Below, piece by piece: positions 2,677 through 29,421 of a stretch of 32,000 bases of DNA (positions are counted from its first letter, which is position 1; every line of letters begins with the position of its first letter). Made by a program: the position numbers and the translations under genes. Origin of the DNA: Nitrososphaerota archaeon (GTDB lineage Archaea; Thermoproteota; Nitrososphaeria; Nitrososphaerales; UBA57); assembly GCA_002713205.1 (NCBI GenBank), contig PAVW01000017.1, positions 27,035 to 59,034 of the forward strand. The letters run 5' to 3'. The notes below the pieces were generated by a model. That model saw only the letters and a list, made by a program, of their open reading frames with translations, made no database searches and was not told the origin of the DNA.

Positions 2677-2767
2677 GGGCTCGTAGTTCAGCATGGATCA
2701 GGGCGTCGAGATAATTCACGCAAGCCTGCGAAGCCGAAGATCGTGGGTTCAAATCCCACCGGGCCCG
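2677..2767 (+). tRNA. tRNA-Arg (anticodon GCG) with a 15-nt non-canonical intron
   Basis: Acceptor stem GGGCTCG/CGGGCCC (one G-U pair), D stem GTTC/GGGC, T arm GTGGG-TTCAAAT-CCCAC, variable loop AGATC, discriminator G, no encoded CCA. Removing 2709-2723 gives anticodon stem TCGGC/GCCGA and loop CTGCGAA. The mature length is 76 nt. Confidence 0.8.
2709..2723 (+). other. tRNA intron at non-canonical position 29/30 (inside the 5' strand of the anticodon stem)
   Basis: Boundaries are inferred only from restoring a perfect 5-bp anticodon stem. The canonical 37/38 intron model does not yield any anticodon arm. I could not confirm a strict bulge-helix-bulge by eye. Confidence 0.55.
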
Positions 2768-2768
2768 T

Positions 2769-3044
2769 TCATTTCTTCCATAATACTATTTTATATTGAC
2801 CTGATCCTGATTTCCAGACACTATACTTTGAAATATATTCAATGACTGATTGAGGCACTGCTTTGGTGGCCATTACATGATCAGTTTCTATAATAATTAC
2901 ATCATTTTCGATTTTTTGAATTTGTTCACGTGCTACTATTTGTGGATAAGGACATACTTCACCATCCATATTGATTATTTTTGCCGTTTTTTCTAATTGC
3001 TTGATTTCTTCATTAGAAATTTCTATTTCAGTTACCATAATCAT
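2769..3044 (-). CDS. TusA/SirA-family sulfur carrier (YeeD/YedF-like partner of YeeE)
   Basis: 91-aa ORF with the CPYP (CPxP) active-site motif in GEVCPYPQIVAREQI. It sits 6 nt downstream of the YeeE/YedE gene on the same strand. Confidence 0.8.
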   Translation of the reverse strand: MIMVTEIEISNEEIKQLEKTAKIINMDGEVCPYPQIVAREQIQKIENDVIIIETDHVMATKAVPQSVIEYISKYSVWKSGSGQYKIVLWKK

Positions 3045-3050
3045 TCACCA

Positions 3051-4148
3051 TTAAATCGCACATCCAACTTTTCTAAACATCCAGTGTGTTGCTATATAAA
3101 CTCCAAGTACTAGACCTAACGATGTTACAAATCCAGACACGGAAAGAAAAGCTAGACCACTGAATGTATTACTTATGTTACAACCAGGAGCCATTCTAGA
3201 TCCAAAACCCATGAGCATGCCGCCTATTATTGCATTTTGCACCCTATTCTTTTTAATCATTCTTATTTTAAAATCTCCACTGAAATATGCAGATATAAAA
3301 GAACCAAAAATTAAAAATAATAACATTATCATATCTAGACTTATGGAAAAATTTCCTCCTGAAAAAACAACATTATTCCAGTAGATATTTTCTTGCAATG
3401 CTTCCATTCCAATTATATTGCTATACGTTAAACCTACCCATCTAGCTTGAGGACCCGTAACACTAAGTGTCCCCCAAACTATAAACCATAATGTTGCAAA
3501 AATTCCCATTCCAAAACCAACAATTTTTGCATCCCAAGCTGATTGTAGGTTGTTGATAGAAATAGATGAAATATTAAATTTTGATATATTTGTAATTAAA
3601 CCCAATTGTTGTTTCTTTTTCAAATATAATACACATGATAGTATGATCAAAATCGGAACAAGTACTGATGTTTGCCCTAAACTTTCAATTAAGCTAAATC
3701 CTTCGAATATTTGTAATGGAGTGAAGAAATATGGAAAGAAAAAGATTGAAAATAAAGATGCAAAAATTACATAACCTGCACATGCTGATATGAGCAGTAA
3801 CCAGTAGTGTAAGTATCCTTCCCCTGCTCTATACAGTGTACCTGATGCACAACCTCCTCCATATACCATTCCGATTCCGAATACAAATCCACCTATTATG
3901 TTGCTTAATCCATAATTTGGTATCCAAAAATGCGAATTTGAAACTCCTAATGAATATGCTATGCTTGTACCTAACATCATGGTTATAATTCCAATTAATA
4001 GACCATACAGTACTCTAGTATCTTTGAATGCTACATAATCTCTTAACGCACTAGTAAAACAAAATCTTCCTTTTTGTAATAATACTCCAAATCCTATTCC
4101 AATTATAATCGTTAAAATTAAACTTAATAATCCTGAATATTCAATCAA
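3051..4148 (-). CDS. yeeE: YeeE/YedE-family thiosulfate / sulfur-compound transporter
   Basis: 365-aa polytopic membrane protein. It carries the three conserved Cys motifs of the family: GRFCFTSA, GGGCASG and APGCNIS. Confidence 0.85.
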   Translation of the reverse strand: MIEYSGLLSLILTIIIGIGFGVLLQKGRFCFTSALRDYVAFKDTRVLYGLLIGIITMMLGTSIAYSLGVSNSHFWIPNYGLSNIIGGFVFGIGMVYGGGCASGTLYRAGEGYLHYWLLLISACAGYVIFASLFSIFFFPYFFTPLQIFEGFSLIESLGQTSVLVPILIILSCVLYLKKKQQLGLITNISKFNISSISINNLQSAWDAKIVGFGMGIFATLWFIVWGTLSVTGPQARWVGLTYSNIIGMEALQENIYWNNVVFSGGNFSISLDMIMLLFLIFGSFISAYFSGDFKIRMIKKNRVQNAIIGGMLMGFGSRMAPGCNISNTFSGLAFLSVSGFVTSLGLVLGVYIATHWMFRKVGCAI

Positions 4149-4153
4149 TTATA

Positions 4154-5296
4154 TTATCCTCCACAGTTGAAATTAGCGCCTATTACTTTCCTAGCTTCAG
4201 TATTTGGACCACTTTTACCTGATTCTCCCATTATATTAAAAAACTGGACATTATGAGGACCATTTCCAGTTTCCAAGACTGTTACTATTTCCATTTTCTG
4301 TATGTCTATTATTGATACGGTAGCATCACCACTATTAGTTACATATGCAAATTTTCCTTCAGGATCTATATCGATATTATGTGGAGATTTACCTGTTTCC
4401 AATTCCTTTATTATTTCTAGTGTTTTTACATCAATTATTAATAATTTATTCATTTCAGGTATGGTGACAAGTAAATTCTTATCATCTTTTGTCACTGCTA
4501 ATCCATGAGGTGTTGATTCTAATATTATCTCACCGGGCTCTACAAAACGAAAATTTGCCCTACCAAAAATTCTATCTAAAATATCATCTAATACTAATAT
4601 TCTAGCTGGTATTTTTCGTATTTTATCGTCTACTTCTGCCGTCCCAATAAAGATTTTCTTATTATTATGGCCTGAAACTATCATCAAAGGTTCAGATTTC
4701 AACCTGATATTCTTCACAACTTTTTCTTCATTAATATCAATAAATGATAAAGTTCTAGATTTTGTATTTGTTACAACAGCTATATCATCATAACGTGCTA
4801 CATGGTGAGGTGCTTCCTGTACTCTTATTTCTGAAATTATTCTATCGGAAGTCGTATTCAGTAAAATTAATGAATTCGTATCTCTGCTAACAACAAAAAA
4901 CACTTCTTCTTTTTCATCAAATATGCCTGCATGTTGAATATTTTCACCTATGGGGATCTTGTATTTTATTTCTAGCGTTTGTGGATTTAATACTAGTATT
5001 TCAGATTGTCCATGATGAATTAAATATAGTTTGTTAAGTTTACTATTGAAATGCGCACCATACTGACCAGAGCTAATTTCTAATGGTATTTCCGTTACAA
5101 TATTAAAATTAATTGGATCAACTATAGTGACTGTTCCTGATATAGTATTAAATATCACCGCTTCATATGTATTGGATTCATTTGATATCGAATGGTAAAT
5201 GAAAGTTCCACCAATCAAAAATCCTATTACTAGACCTGTTAATAGAGCCGCTCTAATGAGGAACTTCTTATTTCCAGTCTTTGACAACTTTTCCAC
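4154..5296 (-). CDS. membrane-anchored YVTN-repeat beta-propeller protein, predicted extracytoplasmic
   Basis: GTG start. The N-terminus MEKLSKTGNKK followed by FLIRAALLTGLVIGFLIGGTFIY looks like a signal anchor. About 40-residue repeats follow (for example KFAYVTNSGDATVSIIDIQKMEIV, LLVTIPEMNKLLIIDVKTLEI). The C-terminus ends ...KVIGANFNCGG. Confidence 0.75.
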   Translation of the reverse strand: MEKLSKTGNKKFLIRAALLTGLVIGFLIGGTFIYHSISNESNTYEAVIFNTISGTVTIVDPINFNIVTEIPLEISSGQYGAHFNSKLNKLYLIHHGQSEILVLNPQTLEIKYKIPIGENIQHAGIFDEKEEVFFVVSRDTNSLILLNTTSDRIISEIRVQEAPHHVARYDDIAVVTNTKSRTLSFIDINEEKVVKNIRLKSEPLMIVSGHNNKKIFIGTAEVDDKIRKIPARILVLDDILDRIFGRANFRFVEPGEIILESTPHGLAVTKDDKNLLVTIPEMNKLLIIDVKTLEIIKELETGKSPHNIDIDPEGKFAYVTNSGDATVSIIDIQKMEIVTVLETGNGPHNVQFFNIMGESGKSGPNTEARKVIGANFNCGG

Positions 5297-5319
5297 TATT
5301 GATTTACTTTATTATTTAT

Positions 5320-6504
5320 TTAAAACTGTTTCAGATCCACAGGAACTATTTTTGATGGACTTTGTGGCAGTGCTATACTGTCTAATTTTTTAAATGAACC
5401 TACTTCAAAGACATCAATTGAACTATTGCCTCCATTAGGTACATATGCAAGACTACTATCTGGACTGAACGCTGGATGACCTGAATTTTCGATTTCAATC
5501 TTTGTAACTTCCTCGAGACTTTCCGTGTCATATACTATTGATGCTGGTCCAGTTCTAACTAACACATATCTTCCATCAGGAGTAAATTCGCTAGTTCTTG
5601 GTGGTGTTTCCACCAATGGAAATCTTTTTACTACCTCTTTTGCTTTAATATCCCAAACCATTTCTTCTGCATCTGTATTCTTAAATCCACCAACATTTGA
5701 CCAATTTCCTGCTGAATTTACTTCAATGAATGCCAAATCATTGTTTGGAGAAATTGTTATCATGCTTCCTCCCCAATCTGAATACTCTGTTGCTAAATGC
5801 TCTTCCACAGTGAAACTATTCGTATCAATTACTGTTAGTAAACTTTCTAGTTGGTTAGTAGTCCATAGTTTGTTATCTGGACCTATTGCAACATCACAAC
5901 AAAACTTTGGTACAGGGAGTTCACCTACTATCTCTCCACTCTGGAGATCAACTTTATAGATTATTGAAGGGTCTACATCTGAAAATGGAATTTCAAATTC
6001 TTCCCTTGCCGCATTAAATTGCTCATCCGAAAATTTCTTAGCAACTAATAGATTCAAAAAATATCCATATTTCCCATCTACATCAGTCTCTGCTAATGCA
6101 AATCTCCATCTTCCTTCTAATGGTATTTCTGTTAACTTCTCATTTGTTGACGGATTTACTTGATATACCGTAGCTTTTCCACCAGCTCTTCCAAGCCCCC
6201 AAATATTTCCATTTTTATCTGGATAGTGATTGGCCCAGTCTACTCTTCCTGCTTCTGCTATCCAAGTAGGTCCTGATGAAGCTAGTAATTTACCTAACGC
6301 TAAATCAATTGTAGCAATTGAACCTTCGGCGCCAAAGACATAGCCTAAAGCACCTTTTTCTTGTTTGAGTTGTTCTAATTCTTGTTCTAATGGGGCTATT
6401 TGGGATCTGTTGGAGAGATAACCTGCACCTCCAATTCCGATACCTACTACGCCTCCGGCTAAATATTTAATGAAATCTCTTCTATTCACATTTTTGGCTG
6501 TCAT
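5320..6504 (-). CDS. Tat-signal beta-propeller-like protein
   Basis: The N-terminus NRRDFIKYLAGGVVGIGIGGAGYL matches the twin-arginine motif (S/T-R-R-x-F-L-K) plus an h-region. The body has propeller-like repeats (LAYVPNGGNSSIDVFEV, LLTVIDTNSFTV) and a vicinal Cys pair, KFCCDVAIG. Confidence 0.6.
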   Translation of the reverse strand: MTAKNVNRRDFIKYLAGGVVGIGIGGAGYLSNRSQIAPLEQELEQLKQEKGALGYVFGAEGSIATIDLALGKLLASSGPTWIAEAGRVDWANHYPDKNGNIWGLGRAGGKATVYQVNPSTNEKLTEIPLEGRWRFALAETDVDGKYGYFLNLLVAKKFSDEQFNAAREEFEIPFSDVDPSIIYKVDLQSGEIVGELPVPKFCCDVAIGPDNKLWTTNQLESLLTVIDTNSFTVEEHLATEYSDWGGSMITISPNNDLAFIEVNSAGNWSNVGGFKNTDAEEMVWDIKAKEVVKRFPLVETPPRTSEFTPDGRYVLVRTGPASIVYDTESLEEVTKIEIENSGHPAFSPDSSLAYVPNGGNSSIDVFEVGSFKKLDSIALPQSPSKIVPVDLKQF

Positions 6505-6571
6505 TTATGGCGTTATATAATGCCGTTATATTTATATAGTTTTCGTCTATTGATTAATTTACGGTAATTAG
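6505..6571. promoter_or_regulatory. divergent promoter region of the sulfur-trafficking divergon
   Basis: 67-nt intergenic spacer. TATA-like TTTATATA lies at 6531-6538, about 34 nt upstream of the ATG at 6572 and, read on the other strand, 26-35 nt upstream of the start at 6504. Direct repeat CGTTATAT occurs at 6511-6518 and 6524-6531. Confidence 0.4.
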
Positions 6572-8008
6572 ATGAGTACTAGACAAGAATTTTGGGATAA
6601 TGTTTCCAAGTATAGAGAAATGGGTATGGATCCGTTGCGTTGGGTAGCAGGTTGTGCTGTTAAGGTAGATCTTAATTCAGTTGTTTATCCTACTCTTCAT
6701 AATATAAAACCAAGTCTAAAACAAATGGGAATTTCTTTAGGCGCAAGAGTAGATGCTGATATATTTCCCCTCGTTGGAGATGGACCTATAATTAATCGAA
6801 GAATTTATGATCCATTTTCTACTAGTATTGATACTGAGGATTTAAAAAAAATTAATCCTAAACGTGCAATTTCACTTCTCCAGGTCTTTCAAAAAAACGC
6901 TGAAAAACAAGAAAAATTTGAAGCGTTGTTGATCAGTCTTTATACATCTATATCAAAATCAAATGTTCATTTTTCTGTTGGAAAAGGGCATTCTATAATA
7001 ACACCAGACAAAGAGGCCGAATTTGCACTTTTTGATTTTATTTCTTATGAAGAAGGTCAAACAGACGGTTATTGTTTATCAAATAATGATACTATTCAAA
7101 TTATTGATCCTACTGCAGATCCTTCATCTGAACAACAAACTAATGTAGCAGTATCGAATTCTCTCAATGATTTAATAACATTGGGTTGTTTTGAAGAATT
7201 GAAAGTTTTACCAGTTGTAGATGCACCAAACCAAGAAATTGAAACACAAATTCTAAAAAATATGACAAGTTTTGCAACTAAATATAATATTGAATTAATT
7301 CCCGCAGAATCTCCTAAACGTAGTAAATTACTAATTGGCGCTACATTATTTGGTTCATTACAAAAAGAACCTCCGACTAAGTTAGATTTGTTGGATTCTG
7401 ATATGAAAATTCTCGTTACGCGACCATTTGGTGATCTAGCTCCTATTAACGTATTCTTATCATGTGTAGCGGATGACACTTTTCTTAAAGACCTTGAAGC
7501 TACTGGATATGGTCTTAAAGATGTTCAGAAGGCTAAAGATTCAGTTATTAAAACTATGAGTGAACCTAATCTCAAAGTCGCAAAAATTATTAATAAATAC
7601 CTCCCTGATTTTGGAAGTGACTTTAATGTTCAAGAACATATTCTAGCAACTGGAGACCTTTCAGGTCCTGGTATAATGATCTTCAAGGAACATGCAGATA
7701 ATGCAAATGTGGATATATCTCTTGATAATTTACCTTTGCAATATCCAGAATTTGTCAAATACGCTACCGAAAATTTCTTAATGGATAATGCAACTGCTGG
7801 GACTAATGGAGCTGTTGCTATAATTGCTAGTTCTAATATTATTGGAAATATTAAGACTGATTTAGCTAAAGAAGGATATGATCCTCGACTTGTAGGTACT
7901 ATACTTGGCAAAGGTACTGGCAATGTTCGTGTTGGAAAGAATGTTAAAGATATGATTGCATCGCAAGCTTTATTGGATGATTTGGATATAACCGGGAATG
8001 AAAATTGA
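6572..8008 (+). CDS. SelD-like PurM-superfamily protein (selenophosphate-synthetase homolog, atypically long)
   Basis: 478 aa. The N-terminal loop VAGCAVKV aligns by eye with SelD GAGCGCKI (Cys28 and Lys31 correspond to E. coli Cys17 and Lys20). Other by-eye matches: VAVSNSLNDLITLG to AATNAISDIFAMGG, ATGDLSGPGI to TDVTGFGL, and NATAGTNGAVAIIAS to PQTSGGLLLAV. There appears to be an extra insertion of about 100 residues after the N-terminal loop. Confidence 0.6.
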   Translation: MSTRQEFWDNVSKYREMGMDPLRWVAGCAVKVDLNSVVYPTLHNIKPSLKQMGISLGARVDADIFPLVGDGPIINRRIYDPFSTSIDTEDLKKINPKRAISLLQVFQKNAEKQEKFEALLISLYTSISKSNVHFSVGKGHSIITPDKEAEFALFDFISYEEGQTDGYCLSNNDTIQIIDPTADPSSEQQTNVAVSNSLNDLITLGCFEELKVLPVVDAPNQEIETQILKNMTSFATKYNIELIPAESPKRSKLLIGATLFGSLQKEPPTKLDLLDSDMKILVTRPFGDLAPINVFLSCVADDTFLKDLEATGYGLKDVQKAKDSVIKTMSEPNLKVAKIINKYLPDFGSDFNVQEHILATGDLSGPGIMIFKEHADNANVDISLDNLPLQYPEFVKYATENFLMDNATAGTNGAVAIIASSNIIGNIKTDLAKEGYDPRLVGTILGKGTGNVRVGKNVKDMIASQALLDDLDITGNEN

Positions 8009-8255
8009 TTTGAGTAAACAATCTAACATAAAAACACTGGATTTAAAAGGTCAGATTTGTCCTTGGCCGGTTATTTTTACAATGAAAGAACTGCAGAAAA
8101 TGAACGATGGTGACATTCTTAAAGTTACAATAGATCATTTACCTTCTACGTTAAATATACCTGCAGCTGCTTCAAAGGAGGGCAATGAGGTTGTTAGTTC
8201 TACCGAGATTGGTGATGGTGTTTTTCAAATTGAAATTAAACACAATATAATCTAG
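7998..8255 (+). CDS. tusA: TusA-family sulfur carrier protein
   Basis: 85 aa with LDLKGQICPWPVIFTMKEL (CPxP motif). The start overlaps the SelD-like stop by 11 nt. Confidence 0.8.
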   Translation: MKIDLSKQSNIKTLDLKGQICPWPVIFTMKELQKMNDGDILKVTIDHLPSTLNIPAAASKEGNEVVSSTEIGDGVFQIEIKHNII

Positions 8256-8281
8256 TAATCTGTTTAACTAGGTGTTGAAAA

Positions 8282-8509
8282 TTGAAAATCGATAGATCGT
8301 TAGATGTTAAAGGTCTTGTTTGTCCTGTTCCTGTACTGAAGACTAAACAAATTATATCTAAAATGAATTCTGGCCAGATTCTTGAAATTTTAGCTACAGA
8401 TAAAGCAGCTAAAGATGACATTCCATCTTGGGCACAACGAGAAGGACATGATGTTTTAGATGTTGCCGAACATGAAAATATTTTCACATTTTATTTAAGG
8501 AAGAAGTAA
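8282..8509 (+). CDS. tusA: TusA-family sulfur carrier protein (tandem paralog)
   Basis: 75 aa, TTG start. LDVKGLVCPVPVLKTKQ and the ATDKAAKDDIPSWAQREGH layout are classic TusA/SirA. Confidence 0.85.
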   Translation: MKIDRSLDVKGLVCPVPVLKTKQIISKMNSGQILEILATDKAAKDDIPSWAQREGHDVLDVAEHENIFTFYLRKK

Positions 8510-8511
8510 CT

Positions 8512-9315
8512 ATGACTAATATATTAGTGTCTAGTGAATGGGTCAAAGATCATCTTGATGATGAACATTTGATTTTTTTTGATATTCGTTCTCCTCGTGA
8601 ATACAACAATGGTCATTTACCCAATTCTGTTCTAATACCATATGAAAAAATCTTAGATTTTTCACCTGATACGCCATTTTTTGATATAGCTGATAAAACA
8701 ACTATTGAACAACTATTGGGAGAAAATGGTGTTGATAATGATACTAAAATTATTGTTTATGGTGACAAAGGTGGTTCAACCGCATCGAGGCTTTTTTGGA
8801 CCCTTTTATTTTATGGTGCTAATGTAAACTTCCTTGATATAAGTTATTCAAAATGGGTTAATTTAGGTTATCCTGTTACCACTGAAGTATATGCTCCTGG
8901 TAAAACTACTTTTATTGCTAATGAAAATCCAGATAATTTTCGTGTAAATAGCGATTATGTATTGTCAAAAATTCAAGATCAAGATACAATCATTCTTGAT
9001 ACTCGTAGTAAAGAAGAATATCAGGGATTAATTGCGGCAGGTCCAAAAGCTGGAAGAATTCCCAATTCTAAACACTTTCCATGGGAAAAGGCTATCGGTG
9101 TTGACGGTAATATATTTCACACTACTGAAGAACTTTCTAGTATATTTGATAATTATGGACTTCAAAATAAAGAAATAATATGTTATTGTCAGGTAGGAGA
9201 ACGTGCTTCTCATACTTTTCTTGCTTTGAAGATTTGTGGCTATTCAAATGTTAAAATATATGACAGATCTTTTGCAGATTGGAGTAATAATTCTAATATG
9301 CCAATTGAGATATAA
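8512..9315 (+). CDS. tandem-rhodanese sulfurtransferase (thiosulfate/3-mercaptopyruvate sulfurtransferase-like)
   Basis: 267 aa with two rhodanese domains. The C-terminal domain has the active-site loop CYCQVGERAS (CxxGxR). The gene starts 2 nt after the tusA paralog stop. Confidence 0.85.
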   Translation: MTNILVSSEWVKDHLDDEHLIFFDIRSPREYNNGHLPNSVLIPYEKILDFSPDTPFFDIADKTTIEQLLGENGVDNDTKIIVYGDKGGSTASRLFWTLLFYGANVNFLDISYSKWVNLGYPVTTEVYAPGKTTFIANENPDNFRVNSDYVLSKIQDQDTIILDTRSKEEYQGLIAAGPKAGRIPNSKHFPWEKAIGVDGNIFHTTEELSSIFDNYGLQNKEIICYCQVGERASHTFLALKICGYSNVKIYDRSFADWSNNSNMPIEI

Positions 9316-25556: not shown

Positions 25557-26450
25557 TTGTTTTCTGCTTTCTCTCCCGGTCAAATCACTGGTTTTTTCAA
25601 ATTACATTATTCTAAAAATTTTCTCTTTTCGGGTTCTACAGGTGCTGGTATATGTATTTCAAATGGTGTTGAGACATCAGTTAAGTTAAAATCCTCTCAA
25701 AAAACAAAATTCAAAATACAAATTAATAATCAATTGACTAATGATGCTATTGTATCGAAATTTGTGGCACGAACAATGACCTCTAAACTAAATCAACATT
25801 ATGAAATTTCTATTAAACATTATTCGGATATACCGATTGGTTGTGGTTATGGTTCAAGTGGTTCCGCTGCATTGAGTTTGGCATATGCATTAAATGAAGC
25901 TCTAAGTCTTGGTCTAAGTCAAGAAAAAACTGCTCAAATTGCTCATATAGCTGAAATTAAATGTAGAACCGGACTTGGTACTGTACTTTCTTTATATAAT
26001 GGTGGCGCACACCTTCGTTTAAATCCAGGTGCTCCAGGAATTGGTAAAGTGCTAAAGTTTAATTCTAATAATCGTATTATTGCAACTTTCACATTAGGAA
26101 ATATATCAACACAAGATATATTATTGAATCCTGCAGTTCCTTCTTTTGTTAATAACCTTGGTCAAACACTTATACAAAAATTCACTAATAATCCTTCTGT
26201 AGATCTATTTCTTACTTTGTCGAGATATTTTGCCCTTTCTTTGAATTTTTTTCCTTATAATTTATATCAATTTATGAAATTAGCTGATAGATATGATATT
26301 GTATGCAGTATGAATATGTTTGGCTATTCAATATTTTCTATTATAAAATCTAATGAAAAAGCTGAATTTTATAATTTATTCCGTAAATCCAATATAAAAG
26401 GAAAACTTATCTTTTCAAATATAGATAATATTGGAGCACATTTATTATGA
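25557..26450 (+). CDS. pantoate kinase (archaeal CoA pathway, GHMP kinase family)
   Basis: TTG start. FSPGQITGFF N-terminus and GHMP motif IPIGCGYGSSGSAALS. ATGA-type overlap with the following phosphopantothenate synthetase gene. Confidence 0.75.
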   Translation: MFSAFSPGQITGFFKLHYSKNFLFSGSTGAGICISNGVETSVKLKSSQKTKFKIQINNQLTNDAIVSKFVARTMTSKLNQHYEISIKHYSDIPIGCGYGSSGSAALSLAYALNEALSLGLSQEKTAQIAHIAEIKCRTGLGTVLSLYNGGAHLRLNPGAPGIGKVLKFNSNNRIIATFTLGNISTQDILLNPAVPSFVNNLGQTLIQKFTNNPSVDLFLTLSRYFALSLNFFPYNLYQFMKLADRYDIVCSMNMFGYSIFSIIKSNEKAEFYNLFRKSNIKGKLIFSNIDNIGAHLL

Positions 26451-27211
26451 CTTTTATAACAATACCTAAAAATCATCCAAGAGCAAAATCACTTAAAGTC
26501 AGAGAAACAATCTCACAATCTTTTTCTGATGGTGTTGTCGTTTCTTCAGGATTAATTGCTCATGGCCGAGGAGAAGCATTTGATTACATTCTTGGTGAAA
26601 AAACATTACCTGTAACAATGACAGCTATAAGAGCTGCTGTCGCAGAATTGTTATTATATAAATCAGTCATATCTGTTAATGGTAATGTAGCTGCATTACA
26701 ATGTAAAAATATCATAACTCTAGCTAATCTAACTAATTCTCAAATTGAAATTAATTTATTTTATAGAACTGAACATCGCATTCAAAAAATTCATGAATTA
26801 TTCAAGAAATACACTGATAACAATATATTGGGAACTGACAAAAAATATCTCGTAAAAATTCCTGAGCTTCAAAGTCTAAGACGCTTTGCTGATAAACGAG
26901 GAATTATAAAATCTGATGTCGTTTTTATTCCACTCGAAGATGGAGATAGAGCCGAATCACTTGTAAATATAGGGAAAAGAGTTCTAACTGTTGATTTGAA
27001 TCCTTTATCCAGAACATCCAAAATGTCTAACATAACTATTGTCGATAATATAATGAGAGCTATCCCTGTGATGATTTTAGAATGTCGAAAAATGAAACAA
27101 TTACCAATCAACGACTTAAAAAAGATATTATCAGATTTTGATAACGAGAATCAATTAAATTTAATTCTAGACCATATTTCTACAAGATTAATATCTTTGT
27201 CAAACAAATAA
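26447..27211 (+). CDS. phosphopantothenate synthetase (archaeal type)
   Basis: IPKNHPRAKSLKVRE...GLIAHGRGEAFDYILGEKT matches the conserved N-terminal signature of the archaeal enzyme family. Gene context is PoK upstream and panB downstream. Confidence 0.8.
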   Translation: MTFITIPKNHPRAKSLKVRETISQSFSDGVVVSSGLIAHGRGEAFDYILGEKTLPVTMTAIRAAVAELLLYKSVISVNGNVAALQCKNIITLANLTNSQIEINLFYRTEHRIQKIHELFKKYTDNNILGTDKKYLVKIPELQSLRRFADKRGIIKSDVVFIPLEDGDRAESLVNIGKRVLTVDLNPLSRTSKMSNITIVDNIMRAIPVMILECRKMKQLPINDLKKILSDFDNENQLNLILDHISTRLISLSNK

Positions 27212-27231
27212 TTAATGAGGAATACTTTAAA

Positions 27232-28086
27232 ATGAATGTTCGAAAGTTAATTAATCTGAAGGAACAGGGAAGACGAATAACCGCTATAACTGCATACGAT
27301 TATTCATTTGCAACAATTGCCGAATCAGCAAATATTGATATTATTTTGGTTGGTGATTCTGGAGCTATGGTTATGTTTGGTTATGAAAATACTACTCCAG
27401 CAACAATGGAAGAAATGTTGCTTATGACAAAAGCTGTTTCACGTGGTGCTAAAAAACCATTATTAGTTGCCGATATGCCTTTTATGTCTTATCATGTTTC
27501 TATTGAAGAATCAATTCGTAACGCAGGAAAATTTGTGAAGGATAGTGGAATGCATGCAGTTAAACTCGAAGGAGATCGCGATATTGCAAAAACTATACGA
27601 GCTATAACAAAAACTGGAATTCCTGTTATGGCACATATTGGATTAAAACCACAAACTGCTAAATCTTGGGATGGCTATAAACTTCAAGGTACGACTTATT
27701 CTTCGGCAAAAAAATTAATTGAAGATGCACAAGAACTAGAGAGTGCTGGCGCATTTTGCATTGTTCTTGAAATGGTCACCAAGGAAATCAGTAAATTGAT
27801 TACTGAAAATCTTTCTATTCCTACGATTGGAATTGGTTCTGGTCAATATTGCGATGGACAAATTCTAGTTCTCCATGATATGTTGAATTTATATGATGCG
27901 ATTAAACCACGTTTTGTCAAACAATACGCAGATCTTAAAACTGAGACATTGAACGCTTTAACTAATTATAAAGAAGATGTTGTCTCTGGAAAATTTCCTG
28001 ATGATACACATTCTCAAAGTATTGATTCTTCTGAATTAATTAAATTGAAAAAATATTTTGTAAAAGTTAATCACGCTGAAATATAA
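27232..28086 (+). CDS. panB: 3-methyl-2-oxobutanoate (ketopantoate) hydroxymethyltransferase
   Basis: ITAITAYDYSFA, ILVGDSGAMV, VKLEGD, MAHIGLKPQ and IGIGSG motifs. Confidence 0.95.
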   Translation: MNVRKLINLKEQGRRITAITAYDYSFATIAESANIDIILVGDSGAMVMFGYENTTPATMEEMLLMTKAVSRGAKKPLLVADMPFMSYHVSIEESIRNAGKFVKDSGMHAVKLEGDRDIAKTIRAITKTGIPVMAHIGLKPQTAKSWDGYKLQGTTYSSAKKLIEDAQELESAGAFCIVLEMVTKEISKLITENLSIPTIGIGSGQYCDGQILVLHDMLNLYDAIKPRFVKQYADLKTETLNALTNYKEDVVSGKFPDDTHSQSIDSSELIKLKKYFVKVNHAEI

Positions 28087-28109
28087 TTCATATAAATTGT
28101 GAAAAATAA

Positions 28110-29249
28110 ATGAGAAATCATGGGCTAAGCCAAAAGGATGTTAATGACAAGCTAACTCGTATAATAAAAAAAGACACTAATTTTAATTCAGGTAAAATAC
28201 TTGGTTCAATGTGCACTACTCCTCATTCTTTTTCTCAAAAAATTTATTCAAAATATTTAGAAAAAAATATTGGAGATCCTGGATTAATACTTGGAACTCA
28301 AAAATTAGAAAACGACTCAATACGTATGATTGGCTCTCTCTTATCTTATCCTGATGCTATTGGTAATGTGGTATCTGGTGGGACAGAAGCTAATATTATT
28401 GCACTTTGGACCGCACGTAATTATTCTAATACATCTAATGCTGAAGTCATATTGCCGTCTCATTCACACCATTCATTTGATAAAGCTGCAGATATTCTAG
28501 GCCTCAAACTTATTAAAATTCCTAGTAAAAACGGTATTATGGATGTTAATCACATTGAAAAAAAAATTACTCGGAATACTATTCTTATGATTGGAGTAGC
28601 TGGTAATACTCCTCTAGGATTGATTGATCCAATTGACGAATTATCGGATTTAGCCATAAAATTTTCAATTCCACTTCATGTAGATGCTTCATTTGGAGGA
28701 TTCATTATTCCTTTTTTACGTAAATCTGAATATAAAATTCCAGAATTTGATTTTAGTCTTCCAGGAGTTTATTCAATTGTAGTTGATCCTCATAAAATGG
28801 GTATGGCTCCTATCCCTTCAAGTTGCATTTTATTTCGTAATAGTAAATTCCTTAATAGTATCTCGAGTAATGTTGACTATTTGTCTGGTGGTCAAAAACC
28901 TCGAAAAACATTATTGGGTACTAGCCCTGGAGCATCGATAATTTCCTTATGGGCTTTGATGAACTTTTTAGGTAAAGATGGATATTCAAAAATTGCATTA
29001 CGCTGTATGAAAAACACTCAATATCTATATGAAAAATTGAATACAATTTCCGGAATTAATATTATACAGAAACCTGTTCTTAACATTATTGGCTTCAAAT
29101 TTAGAAAAATCCCTAATCAATTGCTCGCTAAAAAAATTCGGAAACAAGGTTGGGCAATTTCCGTCTTTCCAACTCATATTAGATTAGTTATTATGCCACA
29201 TATTAATAGACAACATATTGACAACTTTATAGATTCACTTTCTCGTTAA
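28110..29249 (+). CDS. mfnA: PLP-dependent group II decarboxylase, MfnA-type (L-tyrosine/L-aspartate decarboxylase; probable beta-alanine source)
   Basis: SGGTEANIIAL, HVDASFGGF and VDPHKMGMAPIPSSCILFR (PLP lysine). It lies next to pantothenate/CoA genes. Confidence 0.8.
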   Translation: MRNHGLSQKDVNDKLTRIIKKDTNFNSGKILGSMCTTPHSFSQKIYSKYLEKNIGDPGLILGTQKLENDSIRMIGSLLSYPDAIGNVVSGGTEANIIALWTARNYSNTSNAEVILPSHSHHSFDKAADILGLKLIKIPSKNGIMDVNHIEKKITRNTILMIGVAGNTPLGLIDPIDELSDLAIKFSIPLHVDASFGGFIIPFLRKSEYKIPEFDFSLPGVYSIVVDPHKMGMAPIPSSCILFRNSKFLNSISSNVDYLSGGQKPRKTLLGTSPGASIISLWALMNFLGKDGYSKIALRCMKNTQYLYEKLNTISGINIIQKPVLNIIGFKFRKIPNQLLAKKIRKQGWAISVFPTHIRLVIMPHINRQHIDNFIDSLSR

Positions 29250-29421
29250 GAAATCAGTTTATTTTACTTATTTGAAATATTTACACGTATTTTTAGTTGA
29301 ACTATTTTGATTGCTCTGGTGAATTAAGTAAATAATACTTTAGTTCCGGATTTAAATATTAAAACTACTGACTTGAAATTAAGAGTTTAATAATCTATAT
29401 GTAGTTGTTGGTTGATTTAAA

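What the first reader, a model, noticed from the sequence alone, without database searches (positions are those of the whole stretch)
2769..9315. Candidate novel sulfur/selenium capture, import and activation divergon: 2 exported beta-propellers, YeeE, 3 TusA, a SelD-like enzyme and a rhodanese
Eight genes sit in two tightly packed, divergently transcribed operons that share one 67-nt promoter region. The minus arm (gaps of 23, 5 and 6 nt) encodes a Tat-signal propeller, a membrane-anchored YVTN propeller, the YeeE/YedE channel with its three relay cysteines, and a TusA/YeeD-like carrier. The plus arm (11-nt overlap, then 26-nt and 2-nt gaps) encodes a long SelD-like PurM-superfamily protein, two TusA paralogs and a tandem rhodanese. 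YeeE with YeeD is established as a thiosulfate uptake pair. YedE/YedF are known to co-occur with selD in selenium-utilising bacteria. Rhodanese plus TusA is a known persulfide relay. I know of no described system that couples these to an ATP-dependent SelD-like enzyme and to two extracytoplasmic propellers. No Sox, Dsr, Hdr, DsrE, SelA/SelB, SelU or sen genes lie in the window. One working model: chalcogen species are bound outside the cell, pass through YeeE, and are handed to TusA and rhodanese as a persulfide (or perselenide). The SelD-like enzyme then activates the product with ATP, giving a thiophosphate- or selenophosphate-type compound.
Basis: partly seen in the sequence, partly recalled or inferred. 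Interest (0 to 1): 0.8.

Follow-up and report, generated by a model that had tools for sequence, protein, structure and literature searches.

The report
Archaeal sulfur-relay cluster with SelD-like enzyme
A small-genome marine archaeon carries an eight-gene cluster that seems to capture a sulfur compound outside the cell, import it and pass it to an uncharacterised, ATP-using relative of the selenium-activating enzyme SelD; the enzyme family was already described, but its link to the importer and to two exported carrier-like proteins was not.

Summary
The claim of novelty is only partly right. The 478-aa protein belongs to a curated family, NCBIfam NF038049 "SelD-related putative sulfur metabolism protein". 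Li et al. (2014) described that family, noted TusA and rhodanese neighbours, and proposed thiophosphate synthesis. No member has been tested biochemically.

Several results appear to be new.
- YeeE is a recurrent neighbour of the SelD-like gene. It lies within 4 kb in 27 of 80 genomic loci, and YeeE-TusA-SelD-like-acylphosphatase operons occur across many crenarchaeal lineages.
- The window comes from a relative of the heterotrophic marine Thaumarchaea. A 2026 paper reports that this lineage lacks sulfite reductase.
- The two exported propellers are confined to this lineage. One ends in an invariant Cys-Gly-Gly tail that holds its only cysteine, resembling the SoxY carrier arm.
- A 15-23-nt promoter element found only at this cluster marks both arms.
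- In distant relatives the SelD-like gene lies next to SepCysS or a CysK/M-like enzyme.

Most likely this is an outside-to-inside sulfane-sulfur relay that ends in ATP-dependent sulfur activation. It is a new variant of a known kind.

The parts
2769..3044 (-). TusA0, a divergent TusA/YeeD-like sulfur carrier with motif GEVCPYPQI. It is the partner of YeeE.
   Evidence: PF01206 at 28.0 bits against a cutoff of 28.6, with weak YeeD and YedF NCBIfam matches. The CPxP motif is present, and this paralogue type is found only directly after YeeE in the marine Thaumarchaeota loci. The orthologue in L087 is recorded as PF01206.
3051..4148 (-). YeeE/YedE-family membrane channel with three relay cysteines.
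   Evidence: PF04143 at 180.8 bits. It matches S. thermophila YeeE 6LEO at E 2e-27, with the GRFCF, GGGCASG and APGCNIS motifs aligned to the structure's cysteine motifs. It falls below the equivalog cutoffs for both TsuA and YedE/FdhT.
4154..5296 (-). Prop380, an N-terminally membrane-anchored YVTN beta-propeller predicted to face outside the cell.
   Evidence: YVTN repeat TIGR02276 at 61.9 bits, YNCE PF21783 and Cytochrom_D1. Orthologues occur only in this lineage (50-96% identity; 39% for the L087 copy), after which only generic YVTN proteins at about 22% are found. The outward topology is inferred from the K/R-rich N-terminus followed by one hydrophobic segment.
4157..4189 (-). C-terminal tail of Prop380, K-V-I-G-A-N-F-N-C-G-G-COOH. 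This is a candidate SoxY-like swinging-arm carrier cysteine (Cys378).
   Evidence: The tail is invariant in 11 orthologues down to 39% identity, while the roughly 15-residue linker before it varies. The tail cysteine is the only cysteine in every full-length orthologue. None of 26 generic YVTN homologues has the tail. Of 1,928 ORFs of at least 100 aa in the window and loci, only the Prop380 orthologues end in CGG. The sulfur-binding cysteine of SoxY lies in a carboxy-terminal GGCGG arm (PMC6067878, PMC5336275).
5320..6504 (-). TatProp394, a 7-bladed beta-propeller with a Tat signal (NRRDFIKY) and an invariant Cys203.
   Evidence: TIGR01409 at 20.6 bits against a cutoff of 16.7. The AlphaFold2 model has pLDDT 80. 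The best Foldseek matches are the archaeal S-layer YVTN domain 1L0Q, QHNDH-beta, hydrazine synthase-beta and NirF, all generic. There are 22 homologues at 68% identity or more plus one at 36%. C203 is invariant.
6505..6571 (.). The 67-nt spacer shared by the two arms. It holds a conserved element specific to this cluster, TATAATGCCGTTATATTTATATA (6516-6538), and a second conserved block, GATTAATT (6552-6559).
   Evidence: The 23-nt block is invariant across the window and L001-L007, although the flanking proteins are only 50-83% identical. It is unique in the window. The core CGTTATATTTATATA occurs once in each of L001-L007 and twice in L087/L088, where an extra gene separates the arms. It is absent from the other 82 loci.
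6572..8008 (+). SelD-like enzyme (SelDL), the NF038049 'SelD-related putative sulfur metabolism protein'. It is a PurM-superfamily ATP-binding protein with Cys28-x-x-Lys31 in a flexible N-terminal loop and an insertion of about 100 aa (roughly residues 64-170) that carries an invariant GKGH..I motif (SelDL residues 137-142).
   Evidence: NF038049 at 552 bits against a cutoff of 250, covering residues 6-472 of 478. SelD equivalogs are not met (38.9 against 291; 15.5 against 125). AlphaFold2 pLDDT 91.9, pTM 0.91. The top Foldseek matches are SelD structures 3U0O, 3FD5, 5L16 and 2YYE, followed by HypE, ThiL and PurM. N196, D200 and D362 align to E. coli SelD N87, D91 and D227.
7998..8255 (+). TusA1, the TusA partner of the SelD-like enzyme that is conserved across the whole family (motif GQICPWPVI).
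   Evidence: PF01206 at 68.2 bits. It overlaps the SelD-like gene by 11 nt. All 16 TusA genes lying between YeeE and the SelD-like gene in non-Thaumarchaeota loci are most similar to TusA1. TusA lies within 4 kb of the SelD-like gene in 60 of 80 loci.
8282..8509 (+). TusA2, the TusA paralogue that is always paired with the rhodanese (motif GLVCPVPVL).
   Evidence: PF01206 at 87.1 bits. In L001-L007 and L009 the TusA2-type gene lies directly upstream of the rhodanese. Groundwater relatives keep a separate, divergently transcribed TusA-rhodanese pair next to the SelD-like gene.
8512..9315 (+). Tandem-domain rhodanese. The N-terminal domain is inactive (Asp in place of Cys) and the C-terminal domain has the catalytic loop YCQVGERASHT.
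   Evidence: Two PF00581 domains at 120.9 bits. The closest equivalog is 3-mercaptopyruvate sulfurtransferase, at 102.7 bits against a cutoff of 250, so it is not met. The catalytic loop is conserved in all Thaumarchaeota orthologues. A rhodanese lies within 4 kb of the SelD-like gene in 22 of 80 loci.

Best explanation
The cluster is a lineage-specific elaboration of an archaeal sulfur-trafficking module whose conserved core is YeeE, TusA and the SelD-like enzyme. The window comes from a relative of the heterotrophic marine Thaumarchaea.

Proposed path, with each step marked as shown or inferred:
1. Outside the cell, the membrane-anchored propeller Prop380 carries a sulfane or thiosulfonate adduct on its C-terminal Cys-Gly-Gly arm. 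The Tat-exported propeller acts as its partner or loader. This is inferred from the tail motif and from operon membership only.
2. YeeE conducts the sulfur species inward and TusA0 (YeeD-like) receives it. This is inferred from homology to the solved and tested TsuA/TsuB pair.
3. The rhodanese and TusA2 turn it into a protein persulfide and pass it to TusA1. This is inferred from family chemistry and from the fixed gene pairings.
4. TusA1 delivers the sulfur to Cys28 on the flexible N-terminal loop of the SelD-like enzyme. The enzyme uses ATP to make an activated sulfur compound, most likely thiophosphate, the sulfur analogue of selenophosphate. The fold, the motifs and the TusA1 adjacency are shown. 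The chemistry is inferred.
5. The product probably serves cysteine or thiocarboxylate formation. This is a hint from neighbours in distant relatives.

Both arms are probably co-regulated through a cis-element found only at this cluster. In a lineage reported to lack sulfite reductase, this could be a main route for acquiring sulfur.
For: - Family membership and SelD-type active-site residues of the 478-aa protein.
- An unbiased census of genes within 4 kb of the SelD-like gene in 80 genomic loci. TusA occurs in 60 loci, YeeE in 27 and rhodanese in 22.
- YeeE-TusA-SelD-like(-acylphosphatase) operons in Thermofilaceae, Pyrodictiaceae, Desulfurococcales, Acidilobaceae, Ignisphaera, Aeropyrum and Geothermarchaeota, verified with Pfam.
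- Sixteen loci have TusA flanked by YeeE and the SelD-like gene, and all sixteen are TusA1-type.
- Other sulfur genes recur beside the SelD-like gene. These are DsrE with an SQR-like flavoprotein, sulfite reductase, ThiF/MoeB, an sHdr/LbpA cluster, SepCysS and a CysK/M-like enzyme.
- YeeE retains the three relay cysteines of the solved thiosulfate channel.
- Prop380 has an invariant tail holding its only cysteine, analogous to SoxY.
- A promoter element found only at this cluster is duplicated where the two arms are separated.
- The nearest relatives, ASW8_bin1 and HMT_ATL, are heterotrophic marine Thaumarchaea with genomes of about 1 Mb. That lineage is reported to lack sulfite reductase and sulfonate transport and to have low Cys/Met content.
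Against: - No member of the SelD-like family has been assayed, so thiophosphate as a metabolite remains hypothetical.
- The propellers are confined to one lineage, and their fold matches are generic. Their role rests on operon position and the tail motif.
- YeeE is absent next to the SelD-like gene in groundwater Thaumarchaeota, Sulfolobales and others, so import through YeeE is not obligatory for the family.
- Acylphosphatase is present in 46 of 80 loci but absent from the window and from all Thaumarchaeota loci L001-L011. Downstream chemistry may therefore differ here.
- The sulfur-assimilation deficit comes from a paper on related genomes, not from this genome.
- Sequence does not discriminate sulfur from selenium. 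The window's YeeE is about equally far from the TsuA and YedE/FdhT models.
Confidence: 0.5

Rival explanations
1. This is a selenium pathway. YeeE imports a selenium species, TusA and rhodanese carry a perselenide, and the SelD-like enzyme makes selenophosphate for a selenium use not yet recognised. It would mirror the bacterial YedE-YedF-SelD association.
For: - The architecture of channel, TusA-like carrier and SelD-type enzyme parallels the YedE/YedF/SelD co-occurrence described for selenium users (PMC9312934).
- A YedE-like protein is implicated in selenium transport in Methanococcus.
- The best partial NCBIfam match for the window's YeeE is YedE/FdhT, and TusA1 and TusA2 give sub-threshold YedF matches.
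- All SelD catalytic residues are retained.
Against: - The protein fails both SelD equivalogs and meets the separate NF038049 model.
- The family lives in Sulfolobales and Thermoproteales, which have no known selenium trait.
- The recurrent neighbours are sulfur enzymes: DsrE, an SQR-like flavoprotein, sulfite reductase, sHdr/LbpA, SepCysS and a CysK/M-like enzyme.
- The window has no tRNA-Sec, SelA/B or SelU.
Confidence: 0.12
2. The two arms are functionally independent neighbours. The minus arm would be a thiosulfate importer with accessory surface proteins, and the plus arm a separate cytoplasmic SelD-like, TusA and rhodanese unit. Their adjacency would then be inherited synteny only.
For: The full eight-gene layout is seen only where the flanking genes are also syntenic. 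Groundwater Thaumarchaeota have the plus-arm genes without YeeE or propellers.
Against: YeeE sits in the same operon as TusA and the SelD-like gene in many distant lineages. The promoter element found only at this cluster marks both transcription units, and both keep a copy when an extra gene separates them.
Confidence: 0.1
3. The module feeds dissimilatory sulfur oxidation or handles sulfane-sulfur stress rather than assimilation. The SelD-like enzyme would act as an ATP-driven loader within a sulfurtransferase cascade, without releasing free thiophosphate.
For: In L090 a SelD-like-TusA-rhodanese-acylphosphatase operon is divergent from a complete sHdr/LbpA-type cluster with DsrE, an ArsR/BigR-like regulator, an SQR-like enzyme and TauE. 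Sulfolobales loci carry DsrE with an SQR-like flavoprotein. Cascades of sulfurtransferases feeding sHdr are established (PMC11094781).
Against: No Hdr, Dsr, Sox, DsrE or SQR gene is in the window. The host lineage is described as an obligate aerobic organoheterotroph without sulfur energy metabolism. The neighbours SepCysS, CysK/M-like enzyme, ThiF and sulfite reductase point to biosynthesis.
Confidence: 0.15
4. The SelD-like enzyme performs a different PurM-superfamily reaction, such as an ATP-dependent dehydration or cyclisation like HypE or PurM, on a carrier-bound substrate. In that case the Cys-x-x-Lys loop would hold a substrate rather than accept a chalcogen.
For: HypE, ThiL and PurM score almost as well as SelD in the fold search. 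An insertion of about 100 aa with an invariant GKGH..I motif (SelDL residues 137-142) has no counterpart in SelD. Phosphohydrolases recur as neighbours: acylphosphatase, HIT, metallophosphoesterase and a DSP phosphatase.
Against: Among superfamily members, SelD gives the best sequence and fold matches. According to Li et al., the Cys-x-x-Lys motif is specific to SelD within the superfamily. The near-universal neighbours are persulfide carriers.
Confidence: 0.08

Closest known systems
SelD-like family, NCBIfam NF038049 'SelD-related putative sulfur metabolism protein' (Li et al. 2014, BMC Genomics 15:908)
   Same: The 478-aa protein is a full-length member (552 bits against a cutoff of 250) with the same Cys-x-x-Lys, Asp and Asn residues. 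It has the same TusA/SirA and rhodanese neighbours, and the same thiophosphate hypothesis applies.
   Different: The family was described only in hyperthermophilic Sulfolobales and Thermoproteales. This member is in a low-GC marine relative of the heterotrophic marine Thaumarchaea, a cold-ocean lineage. It lacks the acylphosphatase and DsrE-type ('Prx-like') partners. It is joined to YeeE, a third TusA and two exported propellers. The 2014 paper does not mention YeeE.
TsuA/TsuB (YeeE/YeeD) thiosulfate uptake pair (structures 6LEO, 8J4C)
   Same: A PF04143 channel with the three relay cysteines, followed directly by a small TusA-like protein.
   Different: The scores are below the TsuA and TsuB equivalog cutoffs. 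The pair is preceded in the same operon by two extracytoplasmic propellers and is coupled to a SelD-like enzyme. The transported substrate is untested.
Bacterial YedE-YedF-SelD selenium association (Lin et al. 2015, as summarised in PMC9312934)
   Same: The same three-part logic: a YeeE/YedE channel, a TusA-fold carrier and a SelD-type ATP enzyme.
   Different: The enzyme here is the SelD-like paralogue, not SelD. Its recurrent neighbours are sulfur enzymes, and no selenium-use trait accompanies it.
SoxYZ sulfur carrier (SoxY C-terminal GGCGG swinging arm)
   Same: An exported protein whose functional cysteine lies two residues from the C-terminus (…C-G-G-COOH), on a flexible segment.
   Different: The scaffold is a membrane-anchored YVTN beta-propeller, not the SoxY fold. 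No SoxZ, SoxAX, SoxB or SoxCD is present. No adduct has been shown. The resemblance is functional only, not family membership.
Rhodanese-TusA-DsrE sulfurtransferase cascades feeding sHdr or Dsr (PMC11094781)
   Same: A tandem rhodanese plus several TusA paralogues acting as a cytoplasmic persulfide relay. In one relative (L090) the SelD-like operon lies beside an sHdr/LbpA cluster.
   Different: The window has no DsrE, Hdr, LbpA or Dsr. The end-point here is a PurM-superfamily ATP enzyme.
SelD to SepSecS/SelA route, in which selenophosphate is consumed by a PLP enzyme
   Same: In L091 the SelD-like gene lies in one co-directional cluster with a bona fide SepCysS, the sulfur paralogue of SepSecS. 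In eight Caldisphaera/Acidilobus-group loci it lies next to a CysK/M-like PLP enzyme.
   Different: There is only one SepCysS locus. The window has no PLP cysteine-forming enzyme. Li et al. raised this idea and dropped it because Crenarchaeota lack SepRS and SepCysS.

Membership tests
SelD-related putative sulfur metabolism protein (NF038049) | Whole-protein score above the curated cutoff, with end-to-end coverage | tested here: met
   552 bits against a cutoff of 250. Residues 6-472 match profile positions 2-464 of 465.
SelD-related putative sulfur metabolism protein (NF038049) | SelD-type catalytic residues: Cys-x-x-Lys in the N-terminal loop, plus the Asn and Asp residues that bind ATP and metal | tested here: met
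   G27, C28, K31 and D33 are invariant in 108 sequences. N196, D200 and D362 align to E. coli SelD N87, D91 and D227.
SelD-related putative sulfur metabolism protein (NF038049) | PurM/SelD two-domain fold | tested here: met
   AlphaFold2 pLDDT 91.9. The top Foldseek matches are 3U0O, 3FD5, 5L16 and 2YYE, with E values from 7e-15 to 2e-13.
SelD-related putative sulfur metabolism protein (NF038049) | ATP-dependent activation of a sulfur donor | not testable with these tools
   No member of the family has been assayed.
Selenophosphate synthetase SelD (TIGR00476 / PRK14105) | Score above the equivalog cutoff | tested here: not met
   15.5 bits against a cutoff of 125, and 38.9 against 291. There is no Pfam AIRS hit. 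The protein also has an insertion of about 100 aa that SelD lacks.
Selenophosphate synthetase SelD (TIGR00476 / PRK14105) | Accompanying selenium-use trait (SelA/SelB/tRNA-Sec, SelU, YqeB/C or Sen) | tested here: not met
   None is in the 32-kb window. The rest of the genome could not be examined.
YeeE/TsuA thiosulfate transporter | PF04143 domain with the three conserved relay cysteines | tested here: met
   180.8 bits. The cysteine motifs align to 6LEO.
YeeE/TsuA thiosulfate transporter | Equivalog-level identity to TsuA, or alternatively to YedE/FdhT | tested here: not met
   TsuA models score 131 bits against a cutoff of 400 and 114 against 645. YedE/FdhT scores 158.9 against 350.
YeeE/TsuA thiosulfate transporter | Adjacent TusA-fold partner (YeeD/TsuB) | tested here: met
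   TusA0 starts 6 nt after YeeE ends. This pairing is conserved in L001, L004-L006, L087, L092 and L093.
TusA (PF01206) | Domain score above the gathering cutoff and the Cys-Pro-x-Pro motif | tested here: met
   TusA1 scores 68.2 bits and TusA2 87.1 bits, and both have CPxP. TusA0 has the motif but scores 28.0 against the 28.6-bit cutoff, which is borderline.
Rhodanese sulfurtransferase (PF00581) | Tandem domains with a catalytic cysteine in the C-terminal domain | tested here: met
   Two matched stretches at 120.9 bits. The loop YCQVGERASHT is conserved and the N-terminal domain has Asp in place of Cys. The 3-mercaptopyruvate sulfurtransferase equivalog is not met (102.7 against 250).
SoxY sulfur carrier | Carboxy-terminal GGCGG arm with the sulfur-binding cysteine | tested here: inconclusive
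   Prop380 ends in N-C-G-G-COOH. The tail is invariant and holds the protein's only cysteine. The motif is similar but not identical, and no adduct data exist.
SoxY sulfur carrier | SoxY fold and a SoxZ partner | tested here: not met
   Prop380 is a YVTN beta-propeller. No Sox family was found in the window.
Tat-exported protein | Twin-arginine signal | tested here: met
   TIGR01409 at 20.6 bits against a cutoff of 16.7, on residues 6-34 of the 394-aa protein. R8, R9 and F11 are invariant.
YVTN beta-propeller | YVTN repeat model, or a fold match | tested here: met
   Prop380 matches TIGR02276 at 61.9 bits against a cutoff of 27.85. TatProp394 is below that cutoff (19.6 bits), but its model best matches the YVTN propeller 1L0Q at E 3e-15.

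The most novel reading that the evidence does not exclude
The cluster is a complete covalent sulfur relay running from outside the cell to the cytoplasm. An extracellular swinging-arm cysteine on a propeller passes sulfur to the YeeE channel, then to three dedicated TusA carriers and a rhodanese. The relay ends in the first enzymatic synthesis of thiophosphate. Thiophosphate would then be the sulfur donor for PLP-dependent cysteine formation, in the way selenophosphate serves SepSecS. This would be the main sulfur-assimilation route of the genome-streamlined heterotrophic marine Thaumarchaea, which lack sulfite reductase.
Probability: 0.22. Interest if true: 0.88.

Novelty: new variant of a known kind. 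Interest (0 to 1): 0.6.

Why it matters
The SelD-like family has had a published hypothesis (thiophosphate synthesis) but no experiment for over a decade. What donates sulfur in archaea that do not use cysteine desulfurase, for example to SepCysS, is to my knowledge still an open question.

This window and its relatives sharpen the problem in three ways:
- They fix the input side. A YeeE channel and a dedicated TusA recur beside the enzyme across archaeal phyla.
- They suggest an output side. SepCysS, a CysK/M-like enzyme and ThiF are neighbours in distant relatives.
- They show the module in an abundant dark-ocean lineage whose published metabolic reconstructions report missing sulfur assimilation and do not mention this cluster.

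The SoxY-like tail on an exported propeller, if real, would be a new kind of extracellular sulfur carrier. Sulfolobales also carry the family, and to my knowledge some are genetically tractable, so a knockout may be feasible now.

Tried and rejected
- tRNA-Sec next to the cluster. The 91-nt RNA at 2677-2767 is an ordinary tRNA with an intron (Rfam RF00005, 38 bits). ARAGORN could not resolve its anticodon.
- TatProp394 as a known sulfur or selenium propeller enzyme, such as the methanethiol oxidase/SBP56 type or the NosZ/thiocyanate dehydrogenase type. Fold search returned only generic YVTN and WD40 propellers. The afdb50 library was unavailable.
- A ninth operon member. The roughly 500-aa gene after TusA0 in L001, L004, L005 and L006 is a polytopic membrane protein absent from the window, and it probably belongs to the flanking glycosylation genes. 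The extra 239-aa gene in L087/L088 matches no family.
- An acylphosphatase hidden elsewhere in the window. None was found.
- tblastn with the window's YeeE against the loci greatly undercounted YeeE neighbours. Clustering of ORFs was needed to find them.
- Expression evidence from the supplements of the 2020 heterotrophic-marine-Thaumarchaea paper. The stored file is truncated and was uninformative.
- The NFNCGG-stop tail outside the lineage. One exact-pattern metagenome scan found only two close relatives. The pattern fixed the TAA stop, so this is a weak negative.
- Direct phmmer of the 478-aa protein against PDB sequences found nothing. A profile was needed to reach SelD.

Full report
**1. 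Checking the observation**

The minus arm is 5320-6504, 4154-5296, 3051-4148 and 2769-3044, with gaps of 23, 5 and 6 nt. The plus arm is 6572-8008, 7998-8255, 8282-8509 and 8512-9315, with an 11-nt overlap and then gaps of 26 and 2 nt. The spacer between the arms is 67 nt.

Profile searches confirm every family call:
- YeeE matches PF04143 at 181 bits.
- Two TusA proteins are clear (68 and 87 bits). A third, TusA0, is borderline (28.0 bits against a cutoff of 28.6) but keeps the CPxP cysteine motif.
- The rhodanese has two domains. Its catalytic loop YCQVGERASHT is in the C-terminal domain.
- The 394-aa protein has a Tat signal.
- The 380-aa protein has YVTN repeats.

The YeeE protein aligns with the solved S. 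thermophila YeeE, and all three relay-cysteine motifs are conserved. The rest of the window is housekeeping: glycosyltransferases, UbiA, rhomboid, a PEP-mutase-like enzyme, SAM synthetase, PdxS/T, CTP synthase, CoA biosynthesis, RadA and SMC. It holds no Sox, Dsr, Hdr, DsrE or selenium-trait gene. The only RNA gene is an intron-containing tRNA.

**2. The central enzyme is a known family without a known function**

The 478-aa protein gives no Pfam hit. It matches NCBIfam NF038049 "SelD-related putative sulfur metabolism protein" end to end, at 552 bits against a cutoff of 250. It fails both SelD equivalogs.

Li et al. 2014 (PMC4210487) described this family as "SelD-like" and found it only in Sulfolobales and Thermoproteales. 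They noted neighbouring SirA/TusA-like, "Prx-like" (COG2210), rhodanese and DSR genes, and a fused acylphosphatase in Thermoproteales. They proposed that it makes a thiophosphate compound from sulfide and ATP. Reviews from 2022 and 2026 still call this speculative.

I confirmed the structural premise:
- A 108-sequence alignment shows invariant G27, C28, K31 and D33 (the SelD Cys-x-x-Lys loop) and further invariant Asp, Asn and Gly motifs.
- The AlphaFold2 model is confident (pLDDT 91.9, pTM 0.91). Confidence is lower in the N-terminal loop that carries Cys28.
- Foldseek ranks selenophosphate synthetases first, then HypE, ThiL and PurM.
- Profile alignments put N196, D200 and D362 on E. coli SelD N87, D91 and D227. 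I supplied the E. coli sequence from memory and used it only for numbering.

One real difference from SelD is an insertion of about 100 residues that carries an invariant GKGH..I motif at SelDL residues 137-142. The family is rare. Only 96 clusters at 50% identity reach E ≤ 1e-30 among 1.84 billion representatives.

**3. What is conserved around the enzyme**

The family now extends well beyond the 2014 picture. It is found in marine and groundwater Thaumarchaeota, in MAGs labelled Halobacteria, Methanobacteriota and Hydrothermarchaeales, in one MAG binned as Acidobacteriota, and in many crenarchaeal orders.

I fetched 80 genomic loci. The complete eight-gene layout is present only in L001-L007 (79-83% SelD-like identity) and in L087/L088 (62%). 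In all of these the flanking housekeeping genes are syntenic as well, so that co-conservation carries little information.

An unbiased census of all ORFs within 4 kb of the SelD-like gene tells more. TusA occurs in 60 of 80 loci, YeeE in 27 and rhodanese in 22. tblastn with the window's YeeE had missed most of the YeeE genes because they are very divergent. Pfam confirms them.

A compact operon, YeeE-TusA-SelD-like-acylphosphatase, recurs in Thermofilaceae, Pyrodictiaceae, Desulfurococcales, Acidilobaceae, Ignisphaera, Aeropyrum, Geothermarchaeota and Ca. Benthortus. This is independent evidence across deep lineages that YeeE and the SelD-like enzyme work together. I found no paper in the searchable library that links them.

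Typing the TusA genes shows a division of labour:
- TusA1 is the partner conserved across the family. All 16 TusA genes lying between YeeE and the SelD-like gene are of this type.
- TusA2 is always paired with the rhodanese.
- TusA0 is found only after YeeE in the marine lineage.

Acylphosphatase is present in 46 of 80 loci but absent from the window and from all Thaumarchaeota loci L001-L011.

Other recurrent neighbours are sulfur enzymes or phosphohydrolases:
- DsrE with an SQR-like flavoprotein.
- An assimilatory-type sulfite reductase.
- ThiF/MoeB.
- A full sHdr/LbpA-type cluster.
- A CysK/M-like PLP enzyme.
- HIT, metallophosphoesterase and DSP-phosphatase proteins.

In one Hydrothermarchaeales MAG (L091) the gene order is SelD-like-acylphosphatase-TusA-ThiF-TusA-DUF169-SepCysS. 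The last protein meets the SepCysS equivalog (375 bits against a cutoff of 365). SepCysS is the sulfur paralogue of SepSecS, the enzyme that consumes SelD's product. This is a single locus and only a hint.

**4. The parts specific to this lineage**

Both propellers are confined to the window's lineage.
- TatProp394 has 22 homologues at 68% identity or more, plus one at 36%.
- Prop380 has orthologues at 50-96% identity (39% for the L087 copy). Beyond those, only generic YVTN proteins at about 22% are found.
- The TatProp394 model (pLDDT 80) is a 7-bladed propeller whose best matches are generic. They are an archaeal S-layer YVTN domain, QHNDH-beta, hydrazine synthase-beta and NirF. It resembles no known sulfur or selenium enzyme.

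Every orthologue ends in K-[IV]-x-[SG]-A-N-F-N-C-G-G-COOH, after a linker of variable sequence. That cysteine is the only cysteine in each full-length protein. None of 26 generic YVTN homologues has this tail. Among 1,928 ORFs of at least 100 aa in the window and loci, only the Prop380 orthologues end in CGG.

The N-terminus is K/R-rich and is followed by one hydrophobic segment, which predicts an outward-facing protein. This topology is an inference. The tail matches the design of the SoxY carrier, whose sulfur-binding cysteine sits in a carboxy-terminal GGCGG swinging arm. Prop380 is not a SoxY family member, because its fold differs. The resemblance is functional only.

**5. Regulation**

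The 67-nt spacer contains a 23-nt block, TATAATGCCGTTATATTTATATA (6516-6538). It is invariant across the window and L001-L007, although the flanking proteins are only 50-83% identical. It is unique in the window.

Its core, CGTTATATTTATATA, occurs once in each of L001-L007. It occurs twice in L087/L088, where an extra 239-aa gene separates the arms, so each transcription unit has a copy at its head. It occurs nowhere else in the 91 loci. Its orientation relative to the genes is not fixed. It therefore behaves as a symmetric TATA-like or operator element. Co-regulation of the two arms is the natural reading, but it is an inference.

**6. Organism and ecology**

The closest genomic relatives, ASW8_bin1 and ATL, are named members of the heterotrophic marine Thaumarchaea. 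Their genomes are about 0.8-1 Mb.

A 2026 study of 104 genomes of this lineage reports that they lack sulfite reductase and sulfonate transport and have proteins poor in Cys and Met. It attributes the low Cys/Met content to deficient sulfur metabolism. It never mentions YeeE, TusA, rhodanese, thiosulfate or selenium.

I could not inspect the window's own genome. If it shares these deficits, a 6.5-kb sulfur-import cluster kept in a genome of about 1 Mb is a good candidate for the missing route of sulfur acquisition.

**7. Verdict**

The best explanation (confidence about 0.5 for the whole chain) is a sulfane-sulfur relay. It runs from the extracellular Prop380 arm through YeeE, TusA0, the rhodanese with TusA2, and TusA1 to the SelD-like enzyme. 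It ends in ATP-dependent sulfur activation, probably to thiophosphate, for biosynthesis.

The main rivals are:
- a selenium pathway (0.12);
- dissimilatory or stress-related sulfur handling (0.15);
- independent neighbouring operons (0.10);
- a different PurM-type reaction (0.08).

None of the chemistry has been tested in any organism.

Noticed in passing
window 2677-2767 (+): A tRNA gene with an intron-like insertion in the anticodon region (26 nt where the model expects 11). It abuts the stop codon of TusA0 on the opposite strand. ARAGORN cannot assign an anticodon, and Rfam calls it an ordinary tRNA rather than tRNA-Sec.
   Followed up: partly
L091 8001-13250 (Hydrothermarchaeales MAG JBHIFP010000008): A co-directional cluster: SelD-like, acylphosphatase, TusA, ThiF/MoeB-like, TusA, DUF169 and a bona fide SepCysS (TIGR02539, 375 bits against a cutoff of 365). 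It suggests the SelD-like product could feed tRNA-dependent cysteine synthesis.
   Followed up: partly
L090 1-15237 (same protein as L012, a MAG labelled Acidobacteriota): A SelD-like-TusA-rhodanese-acylphosphatase operon is divergent from an sHdr/LbpA-type sulfur-oxidation cluster. That cluster has an ArsR/BigR-like regulator, an LplA-like ligase, DsrE, a GcvH-like protein, Hdr-like subunits and ETF. An SQR-like enzyme and TauE lie nearby. If the binning is right, this is a bacterial member of a family reported as archaea-only. I did not check whether the contig is really bacterial.
   Followed up: no
L081 9936-11858 (groundwater Thaumarchaeota MAG): A 640-aa NIR_SIR sulfite-reductase-type gene lies directly downstream of SelD-like-TusA. 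A sulfonate-type ABC transporter and ComA are a few kb further on.
   Followed up: no
L087 9204-9923 and L088 4985-5704: In the most divergent relatives that keep both arms, an extra 239-aa gene with no family match sits between the SelD-like gene and the Tat propeller. The cluster-specific promoter element is duplicated on either side of it.
   Followed up: partly
window 4154-5296 compared with L001-L007: Prop380 diverges much faster (about 51% identity to L001-L007) than its operon neighbours (TatProp394 about 70%, YeeE about 72%, SelD-like about 80%). The window copy also has an insertion of roughly 24 residues. The C-terminal tail nevertheless stays invariant.
   Followed up: partly
L020, L021, L045, L054, L068 (crenarchaeal YeeE genes): The crenarchaeal YeeE proteins of about 400 aa match the Pfam model in permuted order: the N-terminal half matches profile positions 165-310 and the C-terminal half matches positions 1-147. 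The window's 365-aa YeeE matches the model collinearly.
   Followed up: no
L001 4720-6222 and orthologues in L004-L006, L087, L088: A polytopic membrane protein of about 500 aa with no Pfam match lies directly after TusA0 in relatives. It is missing from the window, where the tRNA gene occupies that position.
   Followed up: partly
window 25557-29249 (+): A compact archaeal coenzyme A biosynthesis cluster. It comprises a GHMP-kinase-like protein, phosphopantothenate/pantothenate synthetase, ketopantoate hydroxymethyltransferase and a PLP-dependent decarboxylase.
   Followed up: no
window ~29420-32000 (+): An SMC-type chromosome-maintenance gene runs off the end of the window, which is why no ORF was listed for this stretch.
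   Followed up: yes
window 6552-6559: A second conserved block, GATTAATT, lies 13-20 nt upstream of the SelD-like start codon. It is nearly invariant across relatives and its role is unknown; it could be an operator, a leader element or a promoter element.
   Followed up: no
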